Notes: a model not told the origin generated them from the sequence alone. 64,000 bases of DNA from Hormiphora californensis (GCA_020137815.1 CM035350.1:8556001-8620000); one strand, 5' to 3'. Shown: positions 27,629 to 48,806, counted from the first letter of the stretch. Made by a program: numbers and translations.

Positions 27629-27640
27629 CAGGGTTACGTC

Positions 27641-28852: not shown

Positions 28853-28891
28853 TCACCCTATATAAGACCAATTAAACCTGATTTTCGTAAA

Positions 28892-29632
28892 ATGGATTCA
28901 CATATAATCATCGCTACCAAAAATGGTGAAAATCCTCTTATTTCGTCAATTGATCCAGTTAATCAACAAAATTTAGAAATTGGAATCAAGTCTATATCAT
29001 ATGGGGAAATTTCGGAGTTTTACTTTGAGTTTTTGATCAATCGAAAACATTACATTATTCCTATTGTAAATTTGAATGAGTACGCAGATTTAGCAAAAAA
29101 ACCATCTAGACTTCAACTGCTTGACCATCTCTTGGAGCAGGTTAAAAAATTTGCTACTGATTTTATACTTCCAATACTTGTGAAACAACGTAAAGGGAAA
29201 GCTAAACAGGGCAAACCAGGAGTACAAATTTTGACTGGAACTGAGGGTGTTCAAATATTACATGTACCCCGTATCTTAAAACCTAAAAAAGTAATAAGCA
29301 AAATCGGTATAAGTGAATGGTACATCACAAATACGGCTATAGATTGGATATCGGAGTTGAAGCAAGTTTCTGTTCAACCTGGTTTCATTTATTGTAATCT
29401 TATTGAAAGTAGTTACCTTAATGGGTATAGATCAAAGTTACTTCAAGTGGTTCCTTTTGATATCGGACCGAATGCATACAAAACGTGGGAGGTTATAAAC
29501 CCAAACTACATTCCAATTCAAGTCAATCAATTTTCGTATCTTGAGTTTACAATCAGGGACCTAAAGGGAGAGTTAATTAAGTTTTCTTCATATCGAGATA
29601 TTGTGTTAACATTACATATTCGTGGAGTATAA
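28892..29632 (+). CDS. Minor capsid protein (penton, PX)
   Basis: C-terminal FIYCNLIE...LLQVVP...NPNYIPI...IRDLKGELIKF...LTLHIR typical of Polinton minor capsid proteins. Confidence 0.85.
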   Translation: MDSHIIIATKNGENPLISSIDPVNQQNLEIGIKSISYGEISEFYFEFLINRKHYIIPIVNLNEYADLAKKPSRLQLLDHLLEQVKKFATDFILPILVKQRKGKAKQGKPGVQILTGTEGVQILHVPRILKPKKVISKIGISEWYITNTAIDWISELKQVSVQPGFIYCNLIESSYLNGYRSKLLQVVPFDIGPNAYKTWEVINPNYIPIQVNQFSYLEFTIRDLKGELIKFSSYRDIVLTLHIRGV

Positions 29633-29695
29633 AAAGGAATATGTTTCGTAGAGTATAAAAGGATTTATTTGTAAAATAATTCATTTTCATTAATT

Positions 29696-30040
29696 ATGGA
29701 AGTTGTTTCACTTAGTAACACGCCTTCTTACCGTCGTATGATTTTACAACACGGGAAAGGATTAGATAAAGAAGGTTACTACGTTTACGATCAAAATGGT
29801 GAAGGGGTGGGTGCAGTGTTTTCGTCAATTTTACGTGGCGCTGTCCCAATAATCGCTCCTTTAGCGGCCGAGGGTGTGAAAAAAATTGTTGACACGGTAG
29901 TCAAGAAATCTATAAAAGGGGTAAGACAGACCCCGTCAGCAAATCATTCTTCGAAAAAACGTCGAATAAACAAGCGAGTTGCAGCTAATCGTAGAATCAA
30001 AAGACGAGTTACGCCATATCCAGTTAAAGCAAGAGTATGA
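29696..30040 (+). CDS. PM-like basic core protein
   Basis: QHGKG and QNGEGVGAVFSSILRGAVP motifs, Arg/Lys-rich tail; TGA overlaps the MCP ATG. Confidence 0.75.
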   Translation: MEVVSLSNTPSYRRMILQHGKGLDKEGYYVYDQNGEGVGAVFSSILRGAVPIIAPLAAEGVKKIVDTVVKKSIKGVRQTPSANHSSKKRRINKRVAANRRIKRRVTPYPVKARV

Positions 30041-31473: not shown

Positions 31474-31907
31474 ACAGTCGTGCTCTTAATCAGTTTTTAA
31501 AAAACAATGACTATACCAAAAGGTATTTTCTAGGGACTTATCCAGCCTGTAAGGCACCTGCATCTAGAAAGAAAGTATTTTGTTTCATAACAAATACAGA
31601 CGAACATGATAAACCAGGAAAACATTGGGTTGCATGGTTTGTTAGGGGTAAAGAAGTTACGTTTTTTGACTCATTTGGTCGTTCCCCGTTTAACAATGCG
31701 TTCCCGCATGATTTTGTGGACTTTTCAGAGAAATTTGAAAAGTGTAAATTTGTTTCTAACCCAGTACAAGAACCTGGTTCCCCATGGTGTGGGTTACATT
31801 GTATTCATTTTATTTTCATGATATGTGTAGGTCTAGATGTGAGAGATTTTTTGAAAAATTATAAAACCAGTAATATTATAAGTATTTTTAATCAAATTTC
31901 AAACTAA
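31470..31907 (+). CDS. Adenain-like cysteine maturation protease
   Basis: NTD...GKHWVA, FFDSFG, Q...CGLHC (His-Asp-Cys plus oxyanion Gln). Confidence 0.95.
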   Translation: MNSRALNQFLKNNDYTKRYFLGTYPACKAPASRKKVFCFITNTDEHDKPGKHWVAWFVRGKEVTFFDSFGRSPFNNAFPHDFVDFSEKFEKCKFVSNPVQEPGSPWCGLHCIHFIFMICVGLDVRDFLKNYKTSNIISIFNQISN

Positions 31908-31916
31908 ACAATCGTT

Positions 31917-32186
31917 TTACAATTCTAACCCAATTGACTTCAAAATTGAATAAACACGCTCATACTTGGTTAAAAACTTTCTCTTCTTCGTGTCCTTAAT
32001 AAATTGTCTGAAAGGTATGCCTAGATCCTCACCATTGTGGTGAATATTTCCATTCTCAATAAGAAACAATCGAGTACAAGCATTGATCAACGGATCCGTA
32101 CCGGTAGAAGGAGTGTACAGGTTTGCCGGGATATTAATTTCCTTACTTTTCCCATTATGCATGGGAACCAGAATATAACGACTCAT
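31917..32186 (-). CDS. Small Polinton protein, unknown function
   Basis: ATG ORF in the tightly overlapping - strand gene run. Confidence 0.55.
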   Translation of the reverse strand: MSRYILVPMHNGKSKEINIPANLYTPSTGTDPLINACTRLFLIENGNIHHNGEDLGIPFRQFIKDTKKRKFLTKYERVYSILKSIGLEL

Positions 32187-32454
32187 TTTGCAGAACTTTC
32201 CGGATGATTTCCGCCACTAGTTTATTATTTTTAATGATAACGTCTTTTATACCGCTCGAGTCTAACAACTTTTTGGAAATAGATTTTCTAATACCAAGTT
32301 TCAACGCTTTTCTACCAATTTCACGCATCAACGTGAAAAATACAGATGGAGCACCCTGAACTATGGCTTTTCGTTTTGACGGAGTAGTTCCAGCATACTG
32401 TTTTAGGATAAACCGATGTTTCTTTAGAGATATACGCTTACCCATGGATCCCAA
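32155..32454 (-). CDS. Small basic Polinton protein (PW-like)
   Basis: KRKAIVQGA...LMREI; directly downstream of the ATPase. Confidence 0.55.
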   Translation of the reverse strand: MGSMGKRISLKKHRFILKQYAGTTPSKRKAIVQGAPSVFFTLMREIGRKALKLGIRKSISKKLLDSSGIKDVIIKNNKLVAEIIRKVLQNESLYSGSHA

Positions 32455-33023
32455 AAATCTGTAATCACAGTCAATTCTTTTGGTAGTAGGGGCGAAAAAC
32501 TTAACAAAACAAATCCTCGTGGTTTATCTGACGCCCTTTTATACGCTTCCAAAATCCTATTGACATCTTTCCCAACAAAAACCTGTCTAGCCAGAGTGTT
32601 GATTTGACGAAAATTTCTCTGATTTTGAAAGAGAACATAATAGTGGGCGTTGGCTGACATAGTTCGAAACGTTTCACAATTCGGGAATAGATTTTGGGTG
32701 ATGAAAAACAAGCTGATCTTTCTATGGTGGGACCCCATGATAAACGCAGAAGCAACTTCTTTGTTTAGACTAAGCAACAGATCATCTATGACAAGCATAC
32801 TCGGTTTGCTAGTGTCGACCTTGGCAAAATCCAGACCCTCTATAAAACAAATTTCAGGGTGCTCGCTCATAAAGGGCTGCTCGACTGAATACATGTAAAA
32901 TATTCGGTCAGGGAATGGCTCAATTAGTCTTTCCCTAATCACACGTAAAATGAATTGAGTCTTTCCTGCTCCGGTTTGTCCATAAACTATGGTATTGTGG
33001 TTTGCTAAAAACTTGATAGGCAT
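32424..33023 (-). CDS. A32/FtsK-like genome-packaging ATPase
   Basis: Walker A GQTGAGKT, Walker B LVIDDL, SHHRKIS..ITQNLF. Confidence 0.96.
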   Translation of the reverse strand: MPIKFLANHNTIVYGQTGAGKTQFILRVIRERLIEPFPDRIFYMYSVEQPFMSEHPEICFIEGLDFAKVDTSKPSMLVIDDLLLSLNKEVASAFIMGSHHRKISLFFITQNLFPNCETFRTMSANAHYYVLFQNQRNFRQINTLARQVFVGKDVNRILEAYKRASDKPRGFVLLSFSPLLPKELTVITDFWDPWVSVYL

Positions 33024-34052
33024 CTAAAAAACTTCTTGATGATCTACCCAACTGTTGGCTGCGTCAGTGTATCCTTGCCACTTCACTAAATACTGTAGCT
33101 TTCCTCTCACTTTTCTCTTCCCGACAATTTTTTCAACTGGATAGATGCTGCTTGATGTATTCACTTTCTGGACCTCTACTTCATAGAAACTGCCCTTTAA
33201 TACATCGCCGTTATAATCTTTTATACTATACGTGACTGGGTCTGTGTTTTTAACCTTGTTGATACTAAATATTTCGTACTGCCATGTCTGCTCAGAACCC
33301 TTTTCAAATGGATTTTTCAGGCGAGTTATCCTGACACTATCGCCTACTGCAAGCTTAGGTGGTCGTTTTTTAGGACGTGGGGGGTATAGTATTTTGCGAA
33401 CTTTCTTCTCATTTTCCTGGGTCACGTCCACAGGTCTCATTTTAATGGATCTATGATAACTATTATTGTACCCATTCACCAAATCATCTAGTATATCGAC
33501 CCAACGAGGTTTACCCAAAGCAGTGAAGGCTCTTAACATACGCATACGTAAAGATCGGTTGACTCTCTCGACAATCGCACATTTGCGGTCCGATGAAACT
33601 GAATAATGATCCACATCGTTAGCGGCTAAAAAACGCTGGAACTTTTTGTTTAAAAATTCGCCTCCCTCATCCGTCTCAAACTTCTGGGGCTTATGTGTTT
33701 CAATCAGTGATTTCAGCGCGTTATAGACACTATTACCAGTCTTGTTTTTAATTTTAAAGGCCCACAGACGCTTAGAAAATGTATCAATCACAGTAATAAT
33801 CCACTTGAATCCGTCATTTACTGCAGAGTCAGAGCTCATATCAACCAAGTCTGCCTGAAAATGATAACCAATTCCCCGTGAATAGATTCTCCTAAAACGA
33901 CGTGGTTTTTGTGTTGGCTTATGCAATGTGTATGCGTTATTTCCTTCTAGAAATTTAGTCACATCAGAAAGTTTTCCTTTTCCAAGAGCCCGATGGAAGG
34001 CAGCTTTGCCAGTGAAGGCTCCGGGAAATTTGGGGTCTGTATAAGAATCCAT
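33024..34052 (-). CDS. RVE (DDE) integrase with C-terminal chromodomain
   Basis: YTLHKP, QADLVDM, IDTFSK, TDEGGEF, ERVNR; chromodomain YPVEKIV...YLVKWQGY..AANSWV. Confidence 0.97.
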   Translation of the reverse strand: MDSYTDPKFPGAFTGKAAFHRALGKGKLSDVTKFLEGNNAYTLHKPTQKPRRFRRIYSRGIGYHFQADLVDMSSDSAVNDGFKWIITVIDTFSKRLWAFKIKNKTGNSVYNALKSLIETHKPQKFETDEGGEFLNKKFQRFLAANDVDHYSVSSDRKCAIVERVNRSLRMRMLRAFTALGKPRWVDILDDLVNGYNNSYHRSIKMRPVDVTQENEKKVRKILYPPRPKKRPPKLAVGDSVRITRLKNPFEKGSEQTWQYEIFSINKVKNTDPVTYSIKDYNGDVLKGSFYEVEVQKVNTSSSIYPVEKIVGKRKVRGKLQYLVKWQGYTDAANSWVDHQEVF

Positions 34053-34111
34053 ATTAATAGCAGCTCTCTGCGAGGGTATAAATAGGTTTTTGTCTCCGAA
34101 TTTACCGAAAA

Positions 34112-34708
34112 ATGGAGTGCAAATTTTGTAAACAATCTTTCGAAAATTGGACGTCTTTGCTCCAACACGAAGAGCAGTGCACTATTAGTAGTACCGGTAG
34201 TACTAAAGAGGAGGTAACCAAACCACAGTCATCTAAATCACCGACTAAATTTGAAAGGCTATACAAAAACAAACTGAGGGATTGCCAGAGAATCAGCAAA
34301 GAAAGTCAGAAAAAGATCAAGATCTTAAACGATCAGTTAAAGGAGCTGAAAATTAATATTGATGACCCTAATTTTAATGCTTTTTCTAACCGTGTTGTAA
34401 ATAGTGAAACCGTGAAGGATTACTTCCGGATTTGTGAACTTGTGTCTGAAAGTCAAGTGGCTACGTTAAGCAAAAAGTTACTTACTTCATTCCAAAAACT
34501 GATTGTAGGCCTGAGTTATGGAGTTGTCCCAATAACGACACCACAGCGTATCCAGTTGACTAGTGAAGATCGAAATTTTATCGCCAAGATTGAAGATCTC
34601 TCACTCGCCAAGGTTAAGAATCTGGTCCTGAAAAATCGGAAATCTTTTATAAACATAATTAATATTTTACGAGAGAGTATTATATTTTTGAAAAGTGTCA
34701 TGAGCTAA
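34112..34708 (+). CDS. Polinton zinc-finger / coiled-coil protein
   Basis: N-terminal CKFC...F...L..HEEQC; TATAAAA near 34077. Confidence 0.7.
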   Translation: MECKFCKQSFENWTSLLQHEEQCTISSTGSTKEEVTKPQSSKSPTKFERLYKNKLRDCQRISKESQKKIKILNDQLKELKINIDDPNFNAFSNRVVNSETVKDYFRICELVSESQVATLSKKLLTSFQKLIVGLSYGVVPITTPQRIQLTSEDRNFIAKIEDLSLAKVKNLVLKNRKSFINIINILRESIIFLKSVMS

Positions 34709-34823
34709 AACAAAAGAGAATTTGTAAAAACAAGAAATGAGTGAATTTAAAAATACTGAACTCTGATTGGTCAGCATGTATACACATATAAAAAGGGGTT
34801 GACTTGTATACCTTTCATTCATA

Positions 34824-35222
34824 ATGTTGTTCCTGGAGAATGTTTGGCTTGGTGTCCTCTGCGACCGACTAGTCCAAAATGCAATGAAGATTTCTGAAAA
34901 AGAATGCCCTGGTCATAAGGAAAAGTTCAACTCCCCATTGCTACATCTATGTCGCCAACTTTCATTGTATGAGAAACTGGTAAAATACTTTGAACCAGCT
35001 AAAGGGAACTTGTTTAAAAAGTTGGAAAATGAATACACGTTGATTGAACATGTTGTACCCCATTCTGACAAACCCGAAGAGGACAAAAGGTATTACCTTG
35101 AGTTCGCAAGAAACTTTCTGCTGAGTGTGACTCCAGACGCTGTGTACTTTGGTAGATACATCTCTGAAGATAACGATCAAATAATTAGTTTGAAAAAGAC
35201 TAAAAAGCGTAAGAGTGCGTAA
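34824..35222 (+). CDS. Small Polinton protein with CxxH...HxC motif and basic NLS-like tail
   Basis: CPGH...LLHLC; KKTKKRK; TATAAAA near 34787 followed by TCATTC. Confidence 0.65.
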   Translation: MLFLENVWLGVLCDRLVQNAMKISEKECPGHKEKFNSPLLHLCRQLSLYEKLVKYFEPAKGNLFKKLENEYTLIEHVVPHSDKPEEDKRYYLEFARNFLLSVTPDAVYFGRYISEDNDQIISLKKTKKRKSA

Positions 35223-35470
35223 GAGTGTCAAGAAAAATAAAACAAAGTGATTTTGTAAAAATAAGTGATTTTTTTAAAAAAATAAAATATCTCGTTTTAA
35301 TTGTCTTACACTGTACACACTGTGTCCATGAAGCCTGGGCACAGTATCAATCACATGCATGAAGCCTGACAGTGATCTGTACTTAATGGTCATAAAAATT
35401 GTACAAACTGTGTGCATGAAGCCTGACCACAGTATCAATCACATGCATGAAGCCTGACAGTGATCTGTAC

Positions 35471-38400
35471 TTATCTAAGCTTGTAATGACCATAACTTAA
35501 CATATCTACACCATTGTTCAAGATATACTTCTTGTCATCAAAAGCAGATAATGCTCTCTTACATACATTCACAGTAAAAATATTGTTTTTCACTGTTCGT
35601 ATAGCTCTACTCGTGGCTAGGGAAGTACCACTCTCTTGAAGAATTGTCCTATAGTTCTCGTGAGTAATGTGCTTCTTTGCAGTACGTGATACACCCTTGG
35701 CCTTTGCTGTATGACCACATTCTGGACCAGTCAGCTTCTTTGTTAGGATCGAGTACATCTTTGGCTTCAGGGCAATCACTTCTCTGATAATCTCAGTAGG
35801 AAGCTCATCAGAAAACTTTCCTGGGACCTTTTTGTTCTCCATGTTTCGGAACTGTGACAGAGGAGTTCCTTCTTTGTACCCAGAGAGATCCATCAGATCC
35901 TTCATGTTGAAAAGGTCTTGATAGCTGTCCTCTGTTTGAACGGAATAGACGAAGGAGTCTGTAGTCGCTGAAGAGGAGCTTGATTTTGTCACCGTATCGG
36001 GGCTTTAGAACTTCGTACCAAAACTGGTACATAATGTGCTTGGCGTTTTCTAGCACCATGAAACCACAAAAAATGGGTTTGTTGAGCATAATTCTAGCCT
36101 TCGAGCACTGGACTAAGGTGATGTCTTTATCCAAGATATGGGCTCCCATATACTGCGGCTTTGATGTTAGCTTTAGCGCCGCTTTCTCAGTGGTAACTAC
36201 CTTGACATCAGTTCGCTTTCTTACTGACTCGATGAATTTTCCATAGACAGAGTTGTTGCAAAGCTTCCAAAAGTCTTTTGAGAAGTCATCAGTTGCTTCC
36301 TGCCGTTTTGCTGAGTTGAAGTTGATGTAAGGACTCATGAAATCCTCTTGGTCAGCAGTCAGAACTCTGTGGATCTTTGTCAACACAAGCCCGTGTTTCA
36401 AGAACAGCTGCAGATTTTTCAGAGAGCATGTGTATCTTTCTTTGGCGTATAGATCAGGAATAAGCTTTCGAGAGGAAGAAAACACCTCCCCGTGCTGCTC
36501 CAAGAACTGTTTGTTGTACTCCGAGAGCAGTGCTTCTTCTACCATTTTCCCTTCGACAGCTAGAGGATAGTCTGTGTGACTGTCGTGAAGGTGATCGGGA
36601 TAATCCAGGTCGACTTCAAAGATGTAGCACTTGTCTCCTTCCGGATCCAGCTTTTGGACATCTAGAGAGTCGATTTCTTCCTGGGATAGCCATTTGAAGT
36701 TCTTGGTTGGCATCTTGTTCTTCATGCTCGCACCATAAAGATTGTTGGCATCAATGTAGTTGATGAATGAAATGGGATCCTCCGGGTTGAAATCATCCAA
36801 GTATTTGTTGTTTGCCTTGGAATGTCGATGATTTACCGTGGTGACGCCTCCTCGAAGCGCTTTCTCGATGAAGGTGTACATCTCAATGTCTGTCAGGACC
36901 TCAAGTTTCACTTTTGTCATCCTCAGCATGGCATCCCAAGCAAAGGCCGGGAGACTGACATAGTGACAGGGATCAAGACCATGAGCCTCCAAACAGAGCG
37001 ACCGGAAGTTCTCGAAAACATCGCAGAGCTGTAGAGTGTCAGTCAGCACGTACAAGTGCATATAGTCACGTAGATTTTTACAACCCATGACTTTGTAGAC
37101 ATTTTGGGCTCGCTGATAATCCTTTTCAGAAATGTGGGACTCTGACAATTGACTGTAAAATGCTTCTTTGGGCGGAAGGTTCTTTTCTTCAAAGACACTG
37201 AACGAGGTGGCGTAGTCGTAAAAGAACACACCTTTTTCAGCTAAAAGTTCACACTTCTCAGGGAACTGTTTCTTTAGGCTAGGAAATTTGTCTATTCCTG
37301 ACTTCTTCAAGTTGCTTGTCAGGCGATCAAGAGAAGTGGACAAGAAAGCGAAGCTATCCAGAAACGTGAACTTGTCTGTGAATACGGCTTTGATTTTTTC
37401 TAAGTTCTCTGGAATTAAGCTGATAGGAGGTATGTTTGGTGACTCCAGATCAGCATCACGTTCATCATCTTCTTGGCAAAATCTGACCAAATCTCGCAAG
37501 AAGAGATTCAGGTCATACCCCTTCATATTGTGGGCGAATGCAGGGACTTTCTTTGTCCGGTTGAAAAAGTTAAGATTGCACTTGTTGCAGGCAGCACCTC
37601 GGAAATTGTTTGTCTTTTTCGAGTGGTCATGATCTCTCACAGGATAGTTTGACTTCGACTTCCAATCAAGATCTTTGTGACATATGTGGCATGATAATGA
37701 TGCCTGGAACTCTAGCTCGTCATCATCTGTCATATCGATGGGATGCTGGTTCTTCTTATAGCATTTCATCATGCTGTCGTGGATTCTTGACAGCTCTGTT
37801 ATGAATGTCTTAGACACCACGACAGGGTCTAGGTGACTGAAGACGACTGGTTCCTCCTTGAAATCTTTGAACTCTGACACTGCCACAATGGCAAACCCAC
37901 AGGGAATATGTTTTTGCACGAGTGTCGTCGATGAAGACTCTGGCATGCATGTCCTGTAGGGCATAGTGAGGCACTCAAAGTCGTAGTAAATTCTAAAGAG
38001 CTTTTTGTCTTGCTTGTGTTCTGCATCAAACTCGATGTATCCAGGCTTGGGCATGACTGGAATCTGGTTAATCCCCTGCATGCAGAAGACGGAATGTTGC
38101 TCCTGCTTGTCTTGAGCTACAAAACCATGAAGGCATTTCCTGCAGTAGAACATTGAGTTTTGATATTTTGTTCTATGTCGCATAAAGGCGTTGAAGTCTT
38201 TTATCAGCATAAAATGAGAGGTGTTGTTATCTTCGATATAAAGTAGATCTATTTGTTCGCCAACACCAGTGCCATGCTTCAGTGGGATGACATATTCTTG
38301 CCCAAACTCGCCTTCACACCACTGGAAGATCGATATAGAGAGCTCATTCAAGCGCTCAACTTTGGGAATATCATTCAGTTGCACAGGAAACTTGACTCCT

Positions 38401-39236
38401 CCCATGTTAAAGTTTCTGGTGTTTCCATTTTTGTCCACATGATTCCCTTTTTCATATTTTTTGTAGGAGCTATGTCTTTCAGAATGATCTTTTACTGGAA
38501 AGAGATGGGCTAGTATGCAGTAGAGGAAGCATCGGTTATCGTTGGACTTTATATTTAGTGTTGATTTCTTGTCGCTTAGTTTCTTTGAAATGGCGACAAA
38601 TCCGGAGCCTTCCAGTGGGGAATATTTGGCAATCTCAAGTTTAGAACATTTGTGTTGATCAAAATTCCATCCACTGCCATGTCGCTCATAGACTTCAACA
38701 CTGTGCCGGAGGATTATTCTAGCTCGTCTGAAAAAATAATCCATATTATCACCTACAAGAAGAGGCTCACACTGGGAACGAAAGACTTTTTCTGCTTCTT
38801 TTCTTTGTCCATCAGATTCTTTGTAAAAGGAAAGGCTTACTGTCAGTTGACACTTTACTGGGTGTCTCTGTACTGCAGCCTCCATAATCGGGCGAGCAGT
38901 GGAACAAACTTTTTCAAAGATTGAGTCATAGTCGTCCGAGCTTGTAAAGCGAAGATCATAAGAGTTGAAGAATCCGTTAACAGAGGAGCAATCTGACCTA
39001 TCCATGTGCTCATGGACACCAGAGACGCGGTTGCAGAGTGACTCGTCTAGATGGGCATGACATAGGACTCGATGGTTGAAAAATCGATCTTCTCTCACGT
39101 TCCTTTTGCATGTAGGACACTCAATCTTAGTGTTATGAGTAAGCAAATGTCTATTAAGGTTCCTTGAAAGTACATACTTTTGGCAGTGTATACATTTAAC
39201 TTTGTTCTTCTGATGTCTTGACTTGGACTTATTCAT
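35471..39236 (-). CDS. Protein-primed family B DNA polymerase (pPolB), split by one +1 indel at ~35963
   Basis: Exonuclease YYDFEC, HNMKGYD, DSFAF; polymerase YIDANNLYG, KLCNNSVYGK, (S)DTDS after removing 1 nt, KMYS, KAKGV; N-terminal zinc fingers and EndoVII-like CHIC...RDHDH...CNKCN. Joins ORFs 35808-39236 and 35471-35992. Confidence 0.97.
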
Positions 39237-39469
39237 TGCTTAATCCCTTGTTTAATTCCTTGTTTAATCCCTTGTTTAATTCCTTGTTTGATTCTTTGCT
39301 TGATTCCTTGTTTGATCCTTTGTTTGATTCCTTGCTTAATTTCTTGTTGAATGAGCAGTGCAGACATCAGGCACTAGCTTTTATAGCTCACAGTAACGCG
39401 TGACATTTTGTAAATATAACGCGTTACTTATGACGTCATGATAAAAATTGAGCAAACTTTTAGTATATA

Positions 39470-39642
39470 CAGTCGGACCTTGATTTACCAGGCTCCGATT
39501 TACCGGAACCCCGATTTACCGGAAGGATAATCTTCCCCCCGAAGTAGGAAATTAACAGTATTTGACCCCGATATACCGGGCACCCCGATTTACTGGGCAA
39601 AACGCTTTCCCCCGAGCATCACGGTAAATCGGGGTCCGACTG
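39470..39642. mobile_element. Tc1/pogo-type MITE inside the Polinton
   Basis: TA|CAGTCGGACC...GGTCCGACTG|TA. Confidence 0.9.
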
Positions 39643-40400
39643 TATTTGTAAACAAAAAATGACCCTAACTCCCGAGAGTTGCGCGGCATCGGTAAGGTGG
39701 GGATAAGGTAACGCTTTTCAATAAGTTGGTTTGGCCAAAGCTACACTGTTGTCCCTCCTAACGAAAGCGGAGTTGAAAACGCGCACTACGGGAATGCAGT
39801 TGGCATATGCTACATGCCCTAGGCGGAGTTGAAAACGCGCGCACTAGGGGACTGTAGCGTATGCCAAGGAGGCCAGCGTTAAAATCTGGGTGTTTCGTGA
39901 GTGCTGACAAACGGTTTTTTAGGGTTAGGGCTAAAGTAGGGTTAGGGTTAGGGTTGGGGTTCGGGTTGGGGTTAGGCCTTGACATTCCCTACCAGATAAA
40001 CTTTGAATTAGCCAAAACGGTTGAGTGGTTCGGCGGTTAGAGCCGTTTTAGTGAATCAACTTTTTTTGGCAGCGCACACCTGTAAACAGGCCACCAAACA
40101 CCCAGATCGTAACGGCGCCCTGCCAAGGACTACAGCGCATACCAATATATTATATGTTTGTAAAAGGAAAAAAATGGAATAAAAATTCGCGCGGCTTTTT
40201 TCCATTTTGCAGCCTCGCTTTGCAAAACAAATCTCGCGCGTTACATAATATTGCGCTGTAGAATTTTATAGCGCGCGCTATAAAACAAAAATTATTTCTT
40301 GAAAGTCCATACCAGCAAAATCGAGTGCAGTTGCAAATATCACGTGTGTACTCTCACTTCTCTCTGTCACTTCTCAATCTCAATAGTCAGCTCTGTCGAC

Positions 40401-41128
40401 ATGTTTTGCTCCACCAAAGTCTTTGTGTTCGTGATAATCATGCTGCATCCGTTTATCATCGCTTCAAAACAGGAGGTATGTATCGACAAGATCTGATTAT
40501 TCAAAATAGCTTGAACACTATTATAATCTGGTTGCCTTGCTGTCTTCTGTGCTCTATAATTAGACCAAACGACTACTACCATGCACCCAAATGACCAATT
40601 TGAGTATACTAAACATCATCTGATAGACATACATATTTTCAGTGCTGTATCAAGGATTATGATGCGGACAGGAGCGAAATAGACTATTTGATGCCAGATT
40701 TTTGTTCCAAATCCATGCGAATCAATGGAATAACTGGGTGGATCGAAATTACACCGTGTGGTGAGTAATTCCTATTTTTCCTATAAAATCTCTCCCATCT
40801 CTGCTAAATTACTAATTCATTATCGACATATTCAAACTTTCAACCTGTTTCTATCAAAGTCCTCTCTTCAGATCCTGAAGTGGAAACTTTGAAGCCCGAC
40901 CCAGAGCCTGAACTCAGAGCGGCTAGCGACATACCTCCAACTATGATAGCATGGGAAACAGAAGCTACCACTAACCAACCTCCGGAAAGAAAAAACAGAT
41001 TTAATGCTATACCTCTTGCAGTAGGGATAGGAATCAATCTTGTGTTGGTAATTGTCTTCGTGATTGGGGTGATAGTATATCTCAAAAAGAGAAAGGTCAC
41101 TCATGTCTACGAAGAAATCGATGTGTGA
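40401..41128 (+). CDS. Spliced Polinton gene: type I membrane protein, 149 aa (exons 40401-40475, 40643-40760, 40872-41128)
   Basis: Donors GTATGT and GTGAGT, TTTCAG/CTTCAG acceptors, phases 0 and 1 consistent; signal peptide, 4-Cys ectodomain, P/T/E stalk, TM, tail KKRKVTHVYEEIDV. Confidence 0.8.
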
Positions 41129-41694
41129 AGATAATAGTTTGAAGTTACGGATGTGAACTTGTTGTTTTTACATTGTGAGAGGGCTTGAAAGAGGTGAACT
41201 TATTGTTTTTTACATTTTCTGGGGGAACAGAGATGGCTCAACTGACGCCGAGGTGAACTCATATCTTGTTGTTTTTACACATTTTTTTGTGAATTTGTTT
41301 TTAAAATTATCATTTATTCCGTTATATAAGCATTATTCAATTTTTGTACTTTTAAAAGGAGAGATTTCATGAAACTCAAATAAATTAAAAAAATCCCCCC
41401 TCTATTGTTCACACAATAGGGTAATGCCTAGCTATTTGGAATGGCGATTCATTTGAAACGCCCCCTCTGCAGCCTAGCAGGTACAACAGGTTCGCATTTT
41501 TAGATATTAGTGGGTTTTGTTTGGGAGCTGACCCAGTACCCACTAATGTCAAGAAATCCAAATATGCTGTACTTGCTAGCCTGTAGCATGTAGAGGGTGT
41601 TTTAAATTATCCAAATAGAAATTCATTACGCTACAATATTCAATTGTCAAATTCTCTCCAGTCTCCATCTTGTCCATCCGTCTTGTTATACTTT

Positions 41695-42318
41695 TCAAAA
41701 CCCTATCTCGTAGAGGAACTGTCCTGTTCGGTCATCGTAGGTCAATAGCAACTGTTTAGCAATGTAGCTTGAACTACCATCGCAGTCAAATATCTAGGAA
41801 AATTGAGATGAGTATATTTTTGATATATGCAAGATAAGTATGGGGTGAGGACTCCTAACTGGAGGGGTGGGGCTGGGGTAGTGATGGAGTATGTTAGGAG
41901 GTTGAGGAAGATTTGAGCATATTAGGGACCATAAAAGTGTTTAGGGGTTATTCAATTAGGATATCCAGATTTTTCAAATTTCCCACTGTCAAATCCACCT
42001 CTGATGAGACTTTAAATTAGTTTTTTTTTTTGGTAGACCCCTGATCTACAAACAAAAACTAATTTAAAGTCTCATCAGGAATGGAGTTATGATCGTGGGA
42101 AATTTGAAAAATCTGGACGTCCTATTTGACGTCCTATTTGAAAGATCCCTTACCTGTAAAGCAAGTCTAGCTGCTTCGCATCCAGTCAAGCACATGATAT
42201 TTCCTGTTGGTACAATCAGCGTTGGTATGGAGACACCACCACAAATTGTCTCCACTATTACACCATGCTCCCACAGTCTGAAAACTTCCTCCATTGATAG
42301 TTGACATGAACAGAACAT
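41695..42318 (-). CDS. Spliced Polinton gene, 87 aa, unknown (exons 42318-42154, 41793-41695)
   Basis: CAG|GTAAGG donor, TTCCTAG acceptor, phase 0, open to TGA. Confidence 0.6.
41957..42124. mobile_element. Palindromic MITE inside the intron of the 87-aa gene
   Basis: TAGGATATCCAGATTTTTCAAATTTCCCAC / GTGGGAAATTTGAAAAATCTGGACGTCCTA; inner CTGATGAGACTTTAAATT / AATTTAAAGTCTCATCAG. Confidence 0.7.
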
Positions 42319-42373
42319 CTATCGAGTACGGAGTAGGGTTAGTTAGCGGTAGTTGGGAAGGGGGAGGTAGTTA

Positions 42374-42531
42374 CAGTCGGACCCCGATTTAGGGACACCC
42401 TCGGGGGAAAGGCTCTTGTCCACTAAATCGGGGTGTCCACTAAATCGGGGTCAAATAAGGTCAATTTCCTATATCGGGGGAAAAAAAATCCTGTCCCTAA
42501 ATCGGGGTACCACTAAATCGGGGTCCGACTG
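42374..42531. mobile_element. Tc1/pogo-type MITE
   Basis: TA|CAGTCGGACCCCGATTTAG...TAAATCGGGGTCCGACTG|TA. Confidence 0.92.
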
Positions 42532-42709
42532 TATAGGGAGTAAGTAGGGAGAGCTATAAGACTAGTAATTAACGGTTGACGCGCAAAACAAAGTAGGTAT
42601 TTTCAGCACTTGGGCGCGCGCCTTGTACATTTAATCGTATACAAAAAATGTATATTCTAGTTTTACTAGTTTTTTCTCAAACGGACTGGATGGATTGCAT
42701 AGTCATGTA

Positions 42710-42879
42710 CAGTCGGACCCCGATTTAGGGACACCCTCGGGGGAAAGGCTCTTTTCCACTAAATCGGGGTGTCCACTAAATCGGGGTCAAATAAGGTCAA
42801 TTTCCTATATCGGGGGAAAAATCCTGTCCCTAAATCGGGGTGCCACTAAATCGGGGGCCCCTAAATCGGGGTCCGACTG
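42710..42879. mobile_element. Tc1/pogo-type MITE, near-identical to 42374-42531
   Basis: Same TIRs and TA TSD. Confidence 0.92.
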
Positions 42880-43029
42880 TAGTAACAAGTCAACATTTTA
42901 AAAGGATAAATAGTGGCATTTAAAATATGTTAAACACAATAATCAAGAGAGAAACACGGATAATATAATGACACGCTCTATATCTACATGAACACATAAT
43001 CAAATTGTTTTTCTTTGCCTGGTCACATC

Positions 43030-43751
43030 TTAAAAAACAGTTCCCGGTGGGGAAACATCGTCCTGAAAACACTTGGCGCCCCAATAATTCTTAAGAATCA
43101 ACTTGATTTTATCAAGGGCACAGTATCTTGCTGAATGACGGAGAATACACCCCGAATATCCAGTCGAGCTGACTGAGCCCATCGTGTCTAACAGATCGAT
43201 GATCTGTGCATCTCCTGGTAGGGCGGCCGTGAGGAATATTTTCGATACACTCCCATATGTCCAGAAAATCTTCTCGGTCTCATATAATTCTCGTAGGGCA
43301 CTGTAGAAACCAGCTGAAAGTCATATTTTTAGATATCTGTTTCATGTACCATAATAAATTCAGCAAACGTCAAGAAAATTGAATGTAGTGAGATGCTTTG
43401 ATTTACCTTCTGTGTATGCACCATGGTATCCCCTGGGGTCAGCGACGCCCAAAGTTCGTATACAATATCTGAAGGTCGAGTTCCGTGGCAGGAACTCTGG
43501 TTCCACATACCCATGGAAAATTTTTGCTCTTTCGACCCTGTCTCTCGTAGCGGAGAATGCAAATTCGGTTACCACTAATCCTGAAAATATGGGAATATAT
43601 GAAACTCTGACAGGGAAGGGAGGGGGTCTGGTATATTCGGACTGGCCTGGACAGGGAGGGAGGAGGTAAAAACAACCAAAAAAACACCTGATTTATAGTT
43701 TATCCCATCAAGCACAACAAGATTCCCTCGGGGTAGTATGCAGTTGGGCAT
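43030..43751 (-). CDS. Spliced Polinton gene: MAEL/DEDD-fold ECHC-like protein A, 173 aa (exons 43751-43688, 43580-43407, 43313-43030)
   Basis: Two phase-1 GT-AG introns give one ORF: LVVLDGINYKSGLVVTEFAF...FHGYVEP...WTYGS...IIDL...CILRHSARYCALDK. Confidence 0.75.
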
Positions 43752-43838
43752 TGTAGAGGACTAGGTAAGTAGTAACCAAGTAACAAGTTGGAAAGTAGTT
43801 GTTTGAGTTATTTCAAGTTGGGAAGTGAAAATTTTCTT

Positions 43839-44680
43839 GTCGTTTTATAGTCTTCAGTCTGGTATCACGTGATCAGTCCTGACCTAACACCACGCTGTGA
43901 TCTAACACCATGCTGTGATCTAACACCACGCTGTGATCTAACACCACGCCTGATCTAACACCACGCTGTGATCTAACACCACGCTGTGATCTAACACCAC
44001 GCTGTGATCTAACACCACGCTGTGATCTAACACCAGTCGTTTTATAGTCTTCAGTCTGGTATCACGTGATCAGTCCTGACCTAACACCACGCTGTGATCT
44101 AACACCATGCTGTGATCTAACACCACGCTGTGATCTAACACCACGCCTGATCTAACACCACGCCTGATCTAACACCACGCTGTGATCTAACACCAGTCGT
44201 TTTATAGTCTTCAGTCTGGTATCACGTGATCAGTCCTGACCTAACACCACGCTGTGATCTAACACCATGCTGTGATCTAACACCACGCTGTGATCTAACA
44301 CCACGCCTGATCTAACACCACGCCTGATCTAACACCACGCTGTGATCTAACACCACGCTGTGATCTAACACCACGCTGTGATCTAACACCACGCCTGATC
44401 TAACACCACGCTGTGATCTAACACCACGCTGTGATCTAACACCACGCTGTGATCTAACACCACGCTGTGATCTAACACCACGCCTGACCTAACACCACGT
44501 TGTGTTCTAACACCACGCCTGACCTAACACCATGCTGTAATCTAACACCACGCCTGATATAACACCTCGCTGTGATCTAACACCACGTCTGATCTAACAT
44601 GACGTAACGTGATCTAACACCTCGCTGTGATCTAACATGACGTAACGTGATCTAACACCTCGCTGTGATCTAACATGACG
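43839..44680. repeat. 18/16-bp tandem array (CTAACACCACGCTGTGAT) with three higher-order units each containing a TATA box
   Basis: Roughly 40 monomers; header GTCGTTTTATAGTCTTCAGTCTGGTATCACGTGATCAGTCCTGAC at 43839, 44036 and 44196. Confidence 0.95.
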
Positions 44681-44810
44681 TGACGTGATAGGTGAAAGAG
44701 CGTGAATCACGCAATTTATTAGTATAAATAATCTAGGTCTCAGCGGGAACTTCACTTCGACAGTCAGCAAGAAACAAGAATATCCGAAAGAACAAGACAC
44801 AACAAGAATA

Positions 44811-45401
44811 ATGGCTGAGATTCCTAGTTCATCTCAAGACGTATGCGATTCGACCAGAGACCGTTTTGCTACTGTGATTTCAGTGATAAAATCGGATGAA
44901 TGGGACTGTCTAATTCTACTCATGCAGACCCAAAATGGGTTTTGGCAAGATATATGGATCACTAGACTTTTTAATGGACACCCCTTGTTTGATAATATTA
45001 AAAAAGGAAGAAAAGTTTATACAGAGGGCCTGAGATTCTCAAACACTTTCTTTAAGCTTTTAAAAATAGAAATAGTCGATTTTGAGAGTTGTTCTGTGTG
45101 TGGTAATTACTACCAAGGGGAATGCTTGCGATGTTGTGATGTCTCTAAAGACCCAGACGTTAGGAAGATAGATGGAGCTTGGGTTTTGAAACGTGTTACC
45201 AAAACCCCCCGTCATCAAACTTTTCTTTTTAAGAAACAAGTGACCCCAAACAATATTCCTGACGTGTTAGGAGTCGCAGTGTTTTCTGCCCAATACAAGT
45301 TTCTAAAGGAACCGGAAACTGGGCGTTGTTACTTTCTTGAAGGTTGGCAAGACAGGAAAACCAGAAAGAACAGTATTGTAATGTCGTGTCTATTAAAGTA
45401 A
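44811..45401 (+). CDS. Polinton 196-aa protein with central CxxC...CxxC zinc ribbon between two beta-rich halves
   Basis: ATG ORF after TATAAAT (~44723); CSVC...CLRC. Confidence 0.7.
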   Translation: MAEIPSSSQDVCDSTRDRFATVISVIKSDEWDCLILLMQTQNGFWQDIWITRLFNGHPLFDNIKKGRKVYTEGLRFSNTFFKLLKIEIVDFESCSVCGNYYQGECLRCCDVSKDPDVRKIDGAWVLKRVTKTPRHQTFLFKKQVTPNNIPDVLGVAVFSAQYKFLKEPETGRCYFLEGWQDRKTRKNSIVMSCLLK

Positions 45402-45553
45402 TCATGCTAATATTGGAATATTAATTATTAATGTAATAATATTATAATTTGAAACTGTTTAATTTAAGTATGTAGTATGTGAATGTCTGACTCCACCTTC
45501 CACGCTCCCTCCCTCATGATTCAATTACATTTTCCCGTATATAGGCTTTGAAG

Positions 45554-46119
45554 ATGAAAGTACTATTGACGACTGACGGTGTAAATCTCAAGAGAGGGTT
45601 TTACCCTCGTGAGTGTGTTCTATCTTATCGAAGATATGGTCGTGTATTTAGTAGGACTTTCTACATTTCTCCGCCAGGTAATTAAATCTCTCCATAATCA
45701 CTTGAAGCGAGATTCTCTCACTCAGACTGTGGACTATGCCTTTTACAACTAACATTTATTAATATTTCAATTGTTCAGATATAAAATTGACGCCCGGAGA
45801 CAAAAAAACTGTTTACTACACGACCCATGTACTAGGAGGTCTTGGCTTCAAGACTGTGAAAGACTCGATACCCTACGAGACCTTTGTGGGGATTCTCAAG
45901 AGACACTCGGGAGACGAAATAATGACCAACGGATCCACAGCCGTCCGCTTTGTGAGAGAGAATATTACCAGAAATGTGAAGGACCTCTTAGTGGAGTTGG
46001 ACATTGCAATTCCGAATACACTCCCTGTATTGTGCCCCGAGCAACACGAGAACAAATACTGTTCGATTACCAAACACGAGTTCTTCAAAAAGCTTTTGAT
46101 TGATGGACGAATGATTTAA
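45554..46119 (+). CDS. Spliced Polinton gene: MAEL/DEDD-fold ECHC-like protein B, 154 aa (exons 45554-45677, 45779-46119)
   Basis: CAG|GTAATT...TTCAG phase-1 intron; VLLTTDGVNLKRGFYPREC...IMTNG...VKDLLV...CPEQHENKYCSITK. Confidence 0.78.
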
Positions 46120-46221
46120 TATTTTCTTGTTAATGTTATTCTAAAAACAAACAGTTCTTAAATATTGTAAAATAATTAGATTTATAAATAATAAAATATT
46201 GTCTATTATGTCTATACCATG

Positions 46222-46842
46222 CAGGGGTGGCCCCAGTACGGATTTTTTGGGGGGGTGGTGTGGCCTTCGGCCACACTTCAAGTCCAAACCTAGCGACCGA
46301 GGTTCCGCGAAGCGGCGCCGAGGGAGCTGCGGCAGGGGGTTTGGGGGGCGCAGCCCCCCAACGGGGTCCAGGGGCAGAGCCCTTGGTGGGGGCCAGGGGG
46401 CGAAGCCCCCGGAAAATTTTAGTTTTTGATGAATTTTAAGCATTTTGGAACAACTTTTTTAACAATTTTCAGCAGTTTTAGAAAACTTTTTCAACGAGTT
46501 TCAGTCACAAGGGGCGAAGCCCCCCTGGAAATTTTAATGAATTAAAGCAATTTAGAACAATATTTTATCAATTTTCAGCCCTTGGTGGGGGCAAATTTTT
46601 TAATGATGTTCAGCCCCTGGTGTGGGTAAGGGGCAAAGCCCCCGGAAAATTTTAGTTTTTGATCAATTTTAATTAATTTAGAACAATATTTTAACGATTT
46701 TCAGCCCTTGGTGTGGGTAAGGGGCGAAGCCCCCGGAAAATTTTAGATTTTGATCAATTTAAAGCAATTTAGAACACTTTTTAAAGCTATTTTACCACCC
46801 CCAACAACCCCTGTTTGAAAAGTTTTGGGGGGGCCACCACTG
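46222..46842. mobile_element. hAT-type MITE inside the Polinton
   Basis: TIR CAGGGGTGGCCCC / GGGGCCACCACTG; 8-bp TSD ATACCATG; GGGCGAAGCCCC internal repeats. Confidence 0.9.
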
Positions 46843-46877
46843 ATACCATGGAGGTATAATCTCCCAAGATTGGATCA

Positions 46878-47433
46878 TCAGTAGTTAGACCCTGGGCTCG
46901 GAACTTCTTCTTTCACGTTACCCAGTATGGGCTGAACTATACACACAGGTCTATCCGATAGGATAGACCTGTGTGTATAGTTCGGCCCATACTGGGTGAC
47001 GTTGTGATCCGAGGTTACCTCTACAGAACAGTCCGGTGCATGAAGAGTCCGGTGCAGAGTCTGGTGCAGGTCCGATGCAGGTGGGAGAGGGCTGGGGATG
47101 GTGTTGGAGAGGGCTGGGGATGGTGTTGGCGGAGTGCCGTGCAGTGTGCCGATATCGAGCCAATCCCTGTCCATGGTCCCGTCATGTTGAGGTACCGCTG
47201 TGTTCTGAGGTGGTCCAGGGGCCGAGTTGTTATAGTTGATCGTCATGGTCTGCAAAAATGAGAATAGTTTAGAAAAATAACAGGGGGGAAGGGTGAGGAA
47301 GGAAATTCAAAATCAACTCGCATAACTAATGGTAGTGTGTAGCACTCATGGAAGTGGGTACCGGTAGTGCTGTTAGTGAGAGACAACTTACAGTCGCATA
47401 AAAGTATGTAGGGTAGGAAGATGCAGGGTCCAT
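46878..47433 (-). CDS. Spliced Polinton gene, 137-aa Pro/Ser/Thr-rich protein (exons 47433-47392, 47249-46878)
   Basis: MDPASSYPTYFYAT|GTAAGT...TTTTGCAG|TMTINY..., phase 0. Confidence 0.6.
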
Positions 47434-48052
47434 AGTAAAGTCGTAGGGTCGTAGTAAAGTCGCTCGCAACTAGAACTGGAACTGTACTGATAGTCTGAGA
47501 AAATGAGGGGTGTTGGTCATATATATAATACAGTAGGCAGATGGCTTACCAGCCAGACTAGGAGGTACTAATTGGTCACACTATGAGAGTTATAGTGAAG
47601 GAAGACAATGGAAAAACGAGTTGTTAGCCAGGCCAGGAGGTGTGATGCGTATTGTATGATGGTAGACGAGGAGGTAAGAAAAGTCGCACTATGATGTGAT
47701 ATATAGCGAAGAAAGAAGCTGGATCAGATCAAGGTACCCGCTACGAGTTGTTAACCAGGAGGTGTGATGCGTGTGATGGTAGTAGTCCTTTGTAAATGTG
47801 ATTGGACTTGGAGTAATGGAAGGTGTGGATTAAGAAGACTATGAACTGGAGCGTTGGGAGGTGAGAGTTGTTATCCAGGAGGTGTGATGTCCAACTGTTA
47901 TATGATAGTAGCAGGCGTTGTAAATGTGATTGGAGTAATGGGAGGTGCGACTAGATGTTGAAAATTATCTAATATAATCTGTCCCATATGAGAGTGATAT
48001 ATTAACAAGGAAATAAAACGAGGATTTAAAGGAAAATAAGAATTCACGTAAA

Positions 48053-48445
48053 TCAAAATTCCCATAAAATTTCTCTTTCTTTTCTCTTTCTAAAAAACTC
48101 TAATCTATCCATAAATTTAGCTTCTCCTAATACTTCTCTACCGTCGTATTTAAAATTTTCACAATCACATGTATGTAAGTAACCATCTAGTAATATTCCA
48201 CCTCTATCACGGCATACTGGTAAACCAGCACATTCATAAACTGCAAAGGTAACGCGTCGAAGATTTTTCTGTTTCTTCATATCAATATCTTTCTTATCAA
48301 GAAATTTATCACTGTTTGTCGTTATCCCAAGTTTAGCTAGTGCGTCTGAGAAATCGAGTGTAGGAATCACAATATCCTTTTTCTTTTTAGTCCCGGAAGA
48401 AATAGTTGAATTGTGTGTTGTCGACATCTTGATAATATAGTACAC
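48053..48445 (-). CDS. Polinton protein with RVxF PP1-docking motif (probable ATG at MSTTH)
   Basis: KNLRRVTF...MDRLEFFRKRKEREIL. Confidence 0.65.
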   Translation of the reverse strand: MYYIIKMSTTHNSTISSGTKKKKDIVIPTLDFSDALAKLGITTNSDKFLDKKDIDMKKQKNLRRVTFAVYECAGLPVCRDRGGILLDGYLHTCDCENFKYDGREVLGEAKFMDRLEFFRKRKEREILWEF

Positions 48446-48649
48446 TTTTTACAATTCAATCTATTGGATCGTATTTCGTCTAGTCTAGTTGGCGAGTCTT
48501 TTGAGGAATATCGGACTTTCAAGTTGGACATTGATCAATTGAATCAGAGTACTAATTGATTTTCAAACTTTTTTTTCGGTTTAAATAGTTATGTTCGTCA
48601 AAAACAACGCGTTACATATTATAGATCACGTGCTATATGCTATATGACC

Positions 48650-48806
48650 CATCATATGATATATCACGTGATTATGACGCAGTGGTGTGACGTCACAATC
48701 ATGCCATGTCATGTGACATCATGTAACATCACGTGATATGCCCAAATATGGAATAATGTTGTGACTCCCAAAATCGTGGGGCATCGTCACTATTTTAAAT
48801 ACTACT
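48650..48806 (-). repeat. Polinton right TIR
   Basis: Reverse complement of 27641-27797. Confidence 0.97.

What the first reader, a model, noticed from the sequence alone, without database searches (positions are those of the whole stretch)
43030..46119. Two Maelstrom-like (ECHC, DEDD-derived) paralogues in the Polinton: possible piRNA/RNA-silencing antagonists
Seen: both spliced proteins share DG(I/V)N, a Glu (VVTE / FYPRE), FHGYVEP / TFYISP, a Gly after a beta strand (WTYG / MTNG), (I/V)xDL(L), and C-terminal CxxxHx4C (CILRHSARYCAL / CPEQHENKYCSI). Known: the MAEL domain of the piRNA factor Maelstrom is an RNase H/DEDD-fold domain that lost the DEDD residues and binds Zn through Glu-Cys-His-Cys (as recalled, FLPCE...FHSFINP...VEDLVV...CKWHE..CAL). 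Inference: an endogenous virus/transposon encodes two mimics of a transposon-silencing protein, acting as decoys or RNA nucleases. Related small proteins may already sit unannotated in other Polintons.
Basis: partly seen in the sequence, partly recalled or inferred. Interest (0 to 1): 0.88.

Follow-up and report, generated by a model that had tools for sequence, protein, structure and literature searches.

The report
Polinton's twin Maelstrom-like pseudonuclease genes
A virus-like jumping element in an animal genome carries two very different, likely spliced copies of an accessory gene that virologists already label MAEL; the proteins are predicted to resemble the transposon-silencing factor Maelstrom with a disabled cutting site, and they may blunt host RNA silencing, which is untested.

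Summary
A 21.2-kb Polinton (27641-48806; AGTAGT ends, 6-bp target duplication) carries two divergent genes, A (43751-43030, minus) and B (45554-46119, plus), with predicted GT-AG introns. A profile of 18 full-length homologues finds B exon 2 (E 4e-21), A exon 3 (2e-7) and B exon 1 (0.01) as the top three of 2641 window segments. A homologue folds confidently (pLDDT 91) as a DEDDh/RNase H domain; Maelstrom, Lassa NP, DnaQ and DinG exonuclease tie (Z 10-11). Counting from the aligned ends, A and B keep the E-C-H-C zinc residues but only one catalytic acid; the last Asp is an invariant Lys (Arg306 in Bombyx Maelstrom). They are probably pseudonucleases.

This is not new in kind: adintovirus maps already label a 'MAEL' gene (Starrett 2021 supplement; two 2026 preprints), and this scan noted it before on other DNA (e1-9234740). 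What is distinctive here: two copies, 20% identical, with introns at different places. Splicing, zinc binding, RNA or PIWI binding and anti-silencing activity are unshown; descent from host Maelstrom is not established; A's N-terminal half is weakly supported.

The parts
27641..48806 (.). Polinton/Maverick (adintovirus-like) element, 21,166 bp
   Evidence: AGTAGT...ACTACT ends, 6-bp target-site duplication TACGTC at 27635-27640 and 48807-48812; integrase, packaging ATPase and protease matches
27641..27828 (+). left terminal inverted repeat
   Evidence: first 157 nt identical to the right repeat, about 188 nt alignable (pair I1)
48625..48806 (-). right terminal inverted repeat
43688..43751 (-). 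gene A exon 1 (ATG; strand beta1 with V-L-D-G)
   Evidence: weak family support
43581..43687 (-). gene A predicted intron 1, 107 nt, phase 1
   Evidence: GT..TTTTCAG; ranks 3rd of 31 forms
43407..43580 (-). gene A exon 2 (beta2 Glu, predicted zinc ligand)
43314..43406 (-). gene A predicted intron 2, 93 nt, phase 1, 29% GC, contains in-frame stops
43030..43313 (-). gene A exon 3 (C-x3-H-x4-C, Lys at C+4, stop)
   Evidence: profile E 1.7e-7; hhalign 96%, E 2.1e-9; helix-strand-helix-strand-helix model pLDDT 77
43843..43849 (-). TATA-like box upstream of gene A, followed by an initiator-like TCACTT
   Evidence: sequence; function inferred
43880..44675 (.). tandem array of an 18-nt unit (about 45 copies) between the divergent promoters
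44811..45401 (+). 196-aa Cys-rich ORF of unknown function between A and B
   Evidence: no Pfam, NCBIfam or PDB match
45554..45677 (+). gene B exon 1 (T-T-D-G, beta2 Glu)
   Evidence: profile E 0.0099; best splice form of 68
45678..45778 (+). gene B predicted intron, 101 nt, phase 1, CTAAC branch-like motif 30 nt from the 3' end
45779..46119 (+). gene B exon 2 (C-x3-H-x4-C, Lys at C+4, stop); AATAAA at 46190
   Evidence: profile E 4.1e-21; 8 homologues in 1.84 billion representatives
35471..39239 (-). protein-primed DNA polymerase B, split over two reading frames near 35.8-36.0 kb in this copy
   Evidence: ORFs 35808-39239 and 35471-36004; name from polymerase motifs read in the sequence (recalled); Pfam gave only an endonuclease VII-like stretch
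33024..34181 (-). retroviral-like integrase with chromodomain
   Evidence: rve E 9.5e-13, Chromo E 5.5e-10
32424..33023 (-). packaging ATPase (FtsK/A32/IVa2-like)
   Evidence: Adeno_IVa2 E 6.5e-4, Pox_A32 E 0.017, both under cut-off
31461..31907 (+). adenovirus-type cysteine protease (adenain)
   Evidence: Peptidase_C5 E 4.9e-4, just under cut-off
30028..31473 (+). putative major capsid protein
   Evidence: 478-aa ORF; no family match; assigned by size and position only

Best explanation
Genes A and B are two old, divergent, likely spliced members of the Polinton/adintovirus 'MAEL' accessory family, predicted to fold as small zinc-stabilised DEDDh domains that have likely lost exonuclease chemistry and would act as RNA- or RNP-binding decoys that dampen host small-RNA silencing of the element. 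Shown: the genes, motifs, family membership and Polinton context. Predicted: splicing; the fold (from a homologue); the E-C-H-C zinc site; the dead active site (first Asp replaced by Val/Thr, general-base His by Tyr, last Asp by Lys, no fixed third acid). Inferred only: that the proteins bind guide-target RNA duplexes or PIWI complexes as Maelstrom does, and so compete with it without recruiting silencing effectors (they lack the HMG box and the C-terminal tail).
For: Family. Fold: AlphaFold2 of homologue P0005 on a 21-row alignment, pLDDT 91, pTM 0.87, order beta1-beta2-beta3-alpha-alpha-beta4-alpha-beta5-alpha; top Foldseek PDB rows are DEDD-type exonucleases; VIA-align Z 10.4, rmsd 3.1, 149 aligned to Maelstrom in the SIWI-piRNA-target-GTSF1 complex 9nhc_F, Z 9.2 to 4ybg, 8.7 to 5af0. 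Register: counting without gaps from the aligned ends, model positions 7/9/141/145 fall on Bombyx Mael D122/N124/C302/R306 (residues named in PMC4408791), 7/9/145 on DnaQ D12/E14/D167, 7/9/140/145 on Lassa NP D389/E391/H528/D533 (PMC3429428). At these columns the family has no Asp at 7 (0 of 18), E/D at 9 (17 of 18), Glu at 21 (18 of 18), Cys 130 and 141 (21 of 21), His near 136 (20 of 21 in column), Tyr at 140 (18 of 21), Lys at 145 (21 of 21); A and B read V/T, D, E, C, H, Y, C, K. A basic residue at the last Asp is shared with inactive, RNA-binding Bombyx Mael. ESM Atlas: the first named family among feature neighbours of P0006 is Maelstrom (0.86, a lead only) and a structure neighbour cluster is 46% viral, Preplasmiviricota. 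Viral relatives: Drosophila-associated adintovirus 2 protein, E 6.9e-8, TM 0.79, and ichnovirus segment ORFs. Maelstrom contacts the target RNA in PIWI complexes (PMC13618286; PMC13269885) and its MAEL domain alone suffices for nuclear function in OSCs (PMC12526068).
Against: The fold match to Maelstrom ties with DinG, DnaQ, Lassa NP and TREX1 (Z 9.5-11); E-C-H-C is also in arenavirus NP (PMC7968707). No Pfam Maelstrom match in 21 members and no PDB sequence match. The domain is about 50 residues shorter than the matched Mael span (157 model residues against 117-319) and spacing is C-x3-H-x4-C against C-x2-H-x8-C. The structure is a homologue's (29% identical to B, 25% to A), not A's or B's; A exon 3 folded alone gave no meaningful PDB match (best Z 4.5). 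A is a very long branch and its N-terminal half is weakly supported. No binding or functional data exist here.
Confidence: 0.42

Rival explanations
1. They are dead DEDDh domains that shield viral or element RNA from innate RNA sensors or general RNAi, or modulate some other host defence, by analogy with arenavirus NP exonuclease, with no special tie to PIWI or Maelstrom.
For: Lassa NP ties or slightly leads in structure (4g9z_A Z 11.0, rmsd 3.6, 143 aligned) and shares E-C-H-C; arenaviral ExoN suppresses innate signalling (PMC7968707). Relatives lie on ichnovirus segments, whose genes usually act in the parasitised host's soma (recalled).
Against: NP needs its catalytic DEDDh residues, which A and B lack; the basic residue at the last Asp is Maelstrom-like.
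Confidence: 0.22
2. They serve the element's own life cycle (binding its DNA ends or transcripts, regulating transcription or splicing, or as protein adaptors) and the Maelstrom likeness is only shared ancestry of a fold.
For: The family is conserved across many Polintons and marks one subgroup linked to hexon variants (Pannagram); neighbours in L020 are protease and another conserved Polinton ORF; net charge varies from -4 to +9, with no consistent basic character.
Against: It is absent from the cupiennin/gasderminX subgroup, so not core; kept in non-replicating ichnovirus segments (biology recalled); two highly diverged copies look more like host conflict than housekeeping (inference).
Confidence: 0.22
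3. They are active nucleases that use a rebuilt site (the retained acid, the invariant Lys, Arg and Tyr) or the zinc centre.
For: Invariant K145, near-invariant R139, E/D9, T52, Y55 suggest a conserved pocket; a paper title reports endoribonuclease activity for Drosophila MAEL (Matsumoto 2015; title seen in reference lists only).
Against: Four of five DEDDh positions lack the catalytic residue; Bombyx Mael with a like pocket was inactive.
Confidence: 0.09
4. Only B is a working gene; A is a decaying or mis-spliced copy.
For: A's long branch (4.9 changes per column), weak N-terminal score, loss of the P-x-x-L-P motif.
Against: Open frame through three exons, canonical splice ends, all four zinc residues and the Lys kept, TATA and initiator-like motifs; a marine-metagenome contig covers 43179-43359 with 2 differences.
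Confidence: 0.12

Closest known systems
Adintovirus/Polinton 'MAEL' (mael) accessory gene: Starrett et al. 2021 (PMC8502044, Suppl. Fig. S2), Pannagram (10.1101/2025.02.07.637071), leafhopper adintoviruses (10.64898/2026.07.28.741253)
   Same: Small accessory gene of animal Polintons with Maelstrom likeness; best viral structural match of the family is a Drosophila adintovirus protein.
   Different: Here two copies, 20% identical, each with predicted spliceosomal introns at different positions, in a host whose DNA relatives occur in marine metagenomes; the published mentions that I saw are labels in insect elements without residue analysis or function. No labelled sequence was compared directly.
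Metazoan Maelstrom MAEL domain (Bombyx 5af0/9nhc, Drosophila 4ybg; Pfam PF13017)
   Same: DEDD fold, E-C-H-C in equivalent places, dead catalytic site with a basic residue at the last Asp.
   Different: About 50 residues shorter, C-x3-H-x4-C spacing, keeps the second acid rather than the first, no HMG box or C-terminal tail, no Pfam match.
Arenavirus nucleoprotein C-terminal exonuclease (Lassa 4g9z/3r3l)
   Same: Viral DEDDh domain with E-C-H-C zinc site; tied structural score.
   Different: NP keeps D389, E391, D466, H528, D533 and digests dsRNA; it is a domain of a nucleocapsid protein in an RNA virus.
Canonical DEDDh exonucleases (DnaQ epsilon 1j53, RNase T, TREX1, DinG exo) and protist EhMael
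   Same: Fold and register.
   Different: All keep the catalytic acids; A and B keep one.

Membership tests
Polinton/adintovirus element | terminal inverted repeats with AGT ends and 6-bp target-site duplication | tested here: met
Polinton/adintovirus element | integrase, packaging ATPase, protease, pPolB, capsid genes | tested here: met
   integrase clear; ATPase and protease under cut-off; PolB by motifs, frameshifted; capsid by size and position only
Adintovirus 'MAEL' accessory gene | homology to proteins at this locus in adintoviruses | tested here: met
   family model matches Drosophila-associated adintovirus 2 A0A7D4ZHK6, E 6.9e-8, TM 0.79; homologue beside Polinton protease in L020
Adintovirus 'MAEL' accessory gene | direct sequence match to a gene that the papers label MAEL | not testable with these tools
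   labelled sequences not retrievable; Suppl. Fig. S1 (slides) unreadable
MAEL domain (Maelstrom family) | DEDD/RNase H fold | tested here: met
   homologue model, Z 8.7-10.4 to Mael structures; not A or B themselves
MAEL domain (Maelstrom family) | E-C-H-C residues at equivalent positions | tested here: met
   C141 = C302 by register, Glu on beta2 within one residue of E137, C and H in the preceding loop
MAEL domain (Maelstrom family) | tetrahedral zinc coordination | not testable with these tools
MAEL domain (Maelstrom family) | sequence match to Pfam PF13017 or closer kinship to Mael than to other DEDDh | tested here: inconclusive
   0 of 21 members match at E up to 10; Atlas score 0.86 is a lead only; structural scores tie
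Metazoan Maelstrom orthologue | N-terminal HMG box and C-terminal tail | tested here: not met
   A and B are about 173 and 154 aa and consist of the core domain only
Metazoan Maelstrom orthologue | RNA binding and PIWI-complex association | not testable with these tools
   needs experiment
Active DEDDh exonuclease | D-x-E, D, H, D catalytic set | tested here: not met
   V/T-x-D, no fixed third acid (position only approximately placed), Y, K (register)

The most novel reading that the evidence does not exclude
Animal Polintons carry a captured, stripped-down MAEL domain that works as a dominant-negative Maelstrom, occupying target-engaged PIWI-GTSF1 complexes so that the element escapes piRNA silencing; this element keeps two diverged, intron-bearing versions that would cover different PIWI proteins or compartments. 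It would be a transposon-encoded protein inhibitor of the piRNA effector step.
Probability: 0.17. Interest if true: 0.9.

Novelty: new member of a known kind. Interest (0 to 1): 0.42.

Why it matters
Whether animal transposons encode proteins that block the piRNA pathway is an open question. The Polinton MAEL gene is an obvious candidate that, in the texts I saw, has only been labelled. The residue map given here (zinc ligands kept, catalytic site dead, Lys where Maelstrom has Arg306) and the existence of a Maelstrom-PIWI-target structure (9nhc) make the decoy idea directly testable. The spliced, doubled form also shows that ORF-based annotation misses these genes.

Tried and rejected
No whole genome was held, so copy number and host Mael/PIWI genes could not be examined. 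Single-exon searches: B exon 2 gave 1 hit in the word-index search; A exon 3 gave none; no close homologue of A was found. Pfam, NCBIfam and PDB sequence searches were blank for exons and homologues. IMG/VR scans with B exon 2, capsid, P0019 and PolB found no relatives; a motif scan gave 4 viral loci, none real, and 43 metagenome loci, 3 real. RNA: no RNA holder was listed; one guessed-RNA run laid no contig on 42950-46200, which is no evidence on expression. Folding A exon 3 alone gave a partial model (pLDDT 77) without a meaningful PDB match; weak top viral rows were the same ichnovirus group (E 0.04 and above). A second Atlas query did not complete. A tree places B with three partial homologues (100/99) and A on a long branch; A+B as one clade is borderline rejected (p-AU 0.043), unreliable given the long branch; I read it only as 'no recent duplication'. 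No complex prediction was run: no PIWI sequence was available. Rejected: ordinary active DEDD DNA exonuclease (catalytic set missing); chance motifs (profile statistics). Literature: 'adintovirus'+'maelstrom' 0 papers; 'Maelstrom'+'Polinton' 4 papers, seen as listing only, none on this by title or abstract start; searches showed no functional study of the viral gene in their listings; subscription journals and bioRxiv supplements were not searchable.

Full report
Setting. The finding lies in a Polinton at 27641-48806 with AGTAGT/ACTACT ends, a TACGTC target-site duplication and terminal repeats identical over the first 157 nt, so the insertion is probably young. It encodes an integrase with chromodomain (clear Pfam matches), a packaging ATPase and an adenain-type protease (matches under cut-off), a putative capsid (size and position only) and a protein-primed polymerase B that is split over two frames near 35.8-36.0 kb in this copy (name from motifs, recalled). 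The host is an animal by inference: LINE reverse transcriptase and a DNMT3-like gene flank the element. No whole genome is held.

Observation. Gene A runs 43751-43030 on the minus strand in three exons, gene B 45554-46119 on the plus strand in two. The introns are 107, 93 and 101 nt, GT-AG, all phase 1. The genes point away from each other across an 18-nt tandem array (43880-44675) and a 196-aa ORF (44811-45401).

Family. B exon 2 found 8 proteins among 1.84 billion representatives, four of them full-length single-ORF proteins of 148-167 aa; a profile search gave 19 proteins among 861 candidates. A profile of the 18 full-length outside rows of alignment A4 (the window row and two partial rows were dropped) ranks B exon 2 (E 4.1e-21), A exon 3 (1.7e-7) and B exon 1 (0.0099) first to third of 2641 window segments. 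B's splice form is the best of 68. Three partial homologues start with S-D or S-E exactly at B's acceptor, a hint that the intron is shared by relatives down to about 50% identity (their DNA was not seen). For A the C-terminal exon is secure; exons 1 and 2 get modest support (10 of 500 and 14 of 1000 shuffles reach the score; form ranked 3 of 31), though a multiple alignment places its D-G, Glu, Pro, Thr, Tyr and Leu on family columns. A and B are 20% identical, no closer than to outside members, have introns at different positions, and do not group in a tree of 23 rows: not a recent duplication. One homologue sits beside a Polinton protease in metagenome contig L020 (3 of 47 motif loci were real).

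Fold and sites. The spliced proteins could not be folded, so homologue P0005 (29% identical to B) stood in: pLDDT 91, pTM 0.87. The Foldseek PDB list is led by DEDD-type exonucleases. VIA-align ties DinG exo (Z 10.6), Maelstrom in the SIWI-GTSF1 complex (10.4; rmsd 3.1; 149 aligned), DnaQ (10.3) and Lassa NP (10.1-11.0). Counting without gaps from the aligned ends gives one register in three structures: model 7, 9, 141, 145 = Bombyx Mael D122, N124, C302, R306; 7, 9, 145 = DnaQ D12, E14, D167; 7, 9, 140, 145 = Lassa D389, E391, H528, D533 (ranges; residues from PMC4408791, and PMC3429428). This is a deduction from end points, not a residue-level superposition. The family and both window proteins keep Glu, Cys, His, Cys and one acid at 9, but have no Asp at 7, Tyr at the His position and an invariant Lys at the last Asp. 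That predicts a zinc-stabilised pseudonuclease. Bombyx Mael, with Arg there, is inactive and binds ssRNA, while EhMael with DEDD is active. E-C-H-C is also in arenavirus NP, so it does not prove descent from Maelstrom; Pfam gave no Maelstrom match in 21 members and the Atlas neighbour scores 0.86, a lead only.

Mechanism. I commit to a dead, RNA- or RNP-binding domain that dampens small-RNA silencing (0.42). Maelstrom joins target-engaged PIWI with GTSF1 and its MAEL domain suffices for nuclear function; a bare viral domain could compete there. All of that is inference. Rivals: shielding from other RNA defences (0.22; ichnovirus relatives), a role in the element's own cycle (0.22), a rebuilt nuclease (0.09); A may be decaying (0.12, not exclusive).

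Prior knowledge. Fig. S2 of Starrett et al. 2021 and not in its main text; Pannagram defines 'mael-associated' polintons; a leafhopper preprint lists 'Malestrom (MAEL)' among adintovirus ORFs. The best viral structural match is a Drosophila adintovirus protein. I did not compare with a labelled sequence directly. What I saw of each paper: PMC4408791 parts 1-2 of 4 of the text; PMC8502044 passages, section 3.2 and the text of Fig. S2 (Fig. S1 slides unreadable and may give the basis of the label); passages only for PMC7968707, PMC2628886, PMC3429428, PMC13618286, PMC13269885, PMC12526068, PMC8363768 and the two preprints (their supplements closed); Matsumoto 2015 title only. My searches listed no functional study of the viral gene.

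Verdict. Real and well supported as a family assignment; a new member of a known but unstudied kind, distinguished by two diverged intron-bearing copies. Interest 0.42, carried by the testable anti-piRNA hypothesis.

Noticed in passing
window 52400-57000 (+): Host DNMT3-like gene in exons: PWWP, ADD and C5-methylase pieces in that order (each under Pfam cut-off), starting about 3.6 kb from the Polinton's right end; whether the element sits inside its 5' region was not checked.
   Followed up: partly
window 44811-45545 (+): Gene B has no well-placed TATA box; an in-frame acceptor at 45545 and phase-0 donors at 44841 and 45378 in the upstream ORF would allow B to be made by alternative splicing from the upstream promoter, or as a fusion. 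No RNA evidence.
   Followed up: partly
window 44811-45401 (+): 196-aa ORF with CxxC...CxxC-like cysteines, no database match; a marine-metagenome contig differs at 20 listed places, 10 at third codon positions.
   Followed up: partly
window 43841-44690: The array includes three copies of gene A's TATA-containing promoter segment and E-box-like TCACGTGA motifs, also frequent in the terminal repeats with TGACGTCA.
   Followed up: no
window 39468-39644, 39870-40121, 42372-42521, 42708-42881: Small high-copy host repeats (MITE-like) inserted in the element's accessory region; very high contig depth in host runs.
   Followed up: no
window 35808-39239 (-): The polymerase carries an endonuclease VII-like stretch at residues 510-556 (E 1.8e-4), and this copy is frameshifted near its C-terminus.
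   Followed up: no
window 40808-41128 (+), 46878-47306 (-), 48053-48448 (-): Further accessory ORFs: a single-pass membrane protein exon, a Thr/Pro-rich exon, and a small Cys-containing ORF beside the right repeat; probably spliced; no family match.
   Followed up: no
window 58721-60226 (-): Host ORF of 501 codons with a signal-peptide-like start, repeated Cys-rich modules (CMDPCMSGC...) and GGMGG repeats; no Pfam match.
   Followed up: no
window 8400-9340: Array of 41-nt repeats with a TCGATCTCGATTCGATC core.
   Followed up: no
L020 1306-3119; L012 2199-2675: Single-ORF MAEL-family gene next to homologues of the window's 34803 ORF and protease, a different gene order from this element.
   Followed up: yes
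BFVD hits A2PZZ9, S5DRE3, A2PZT5, S5DMS0: Several banchine ichnovirus segment ORFs share the fold, suggesting reuse of the gene by wasp polydnaviruses.
   Followed up: no
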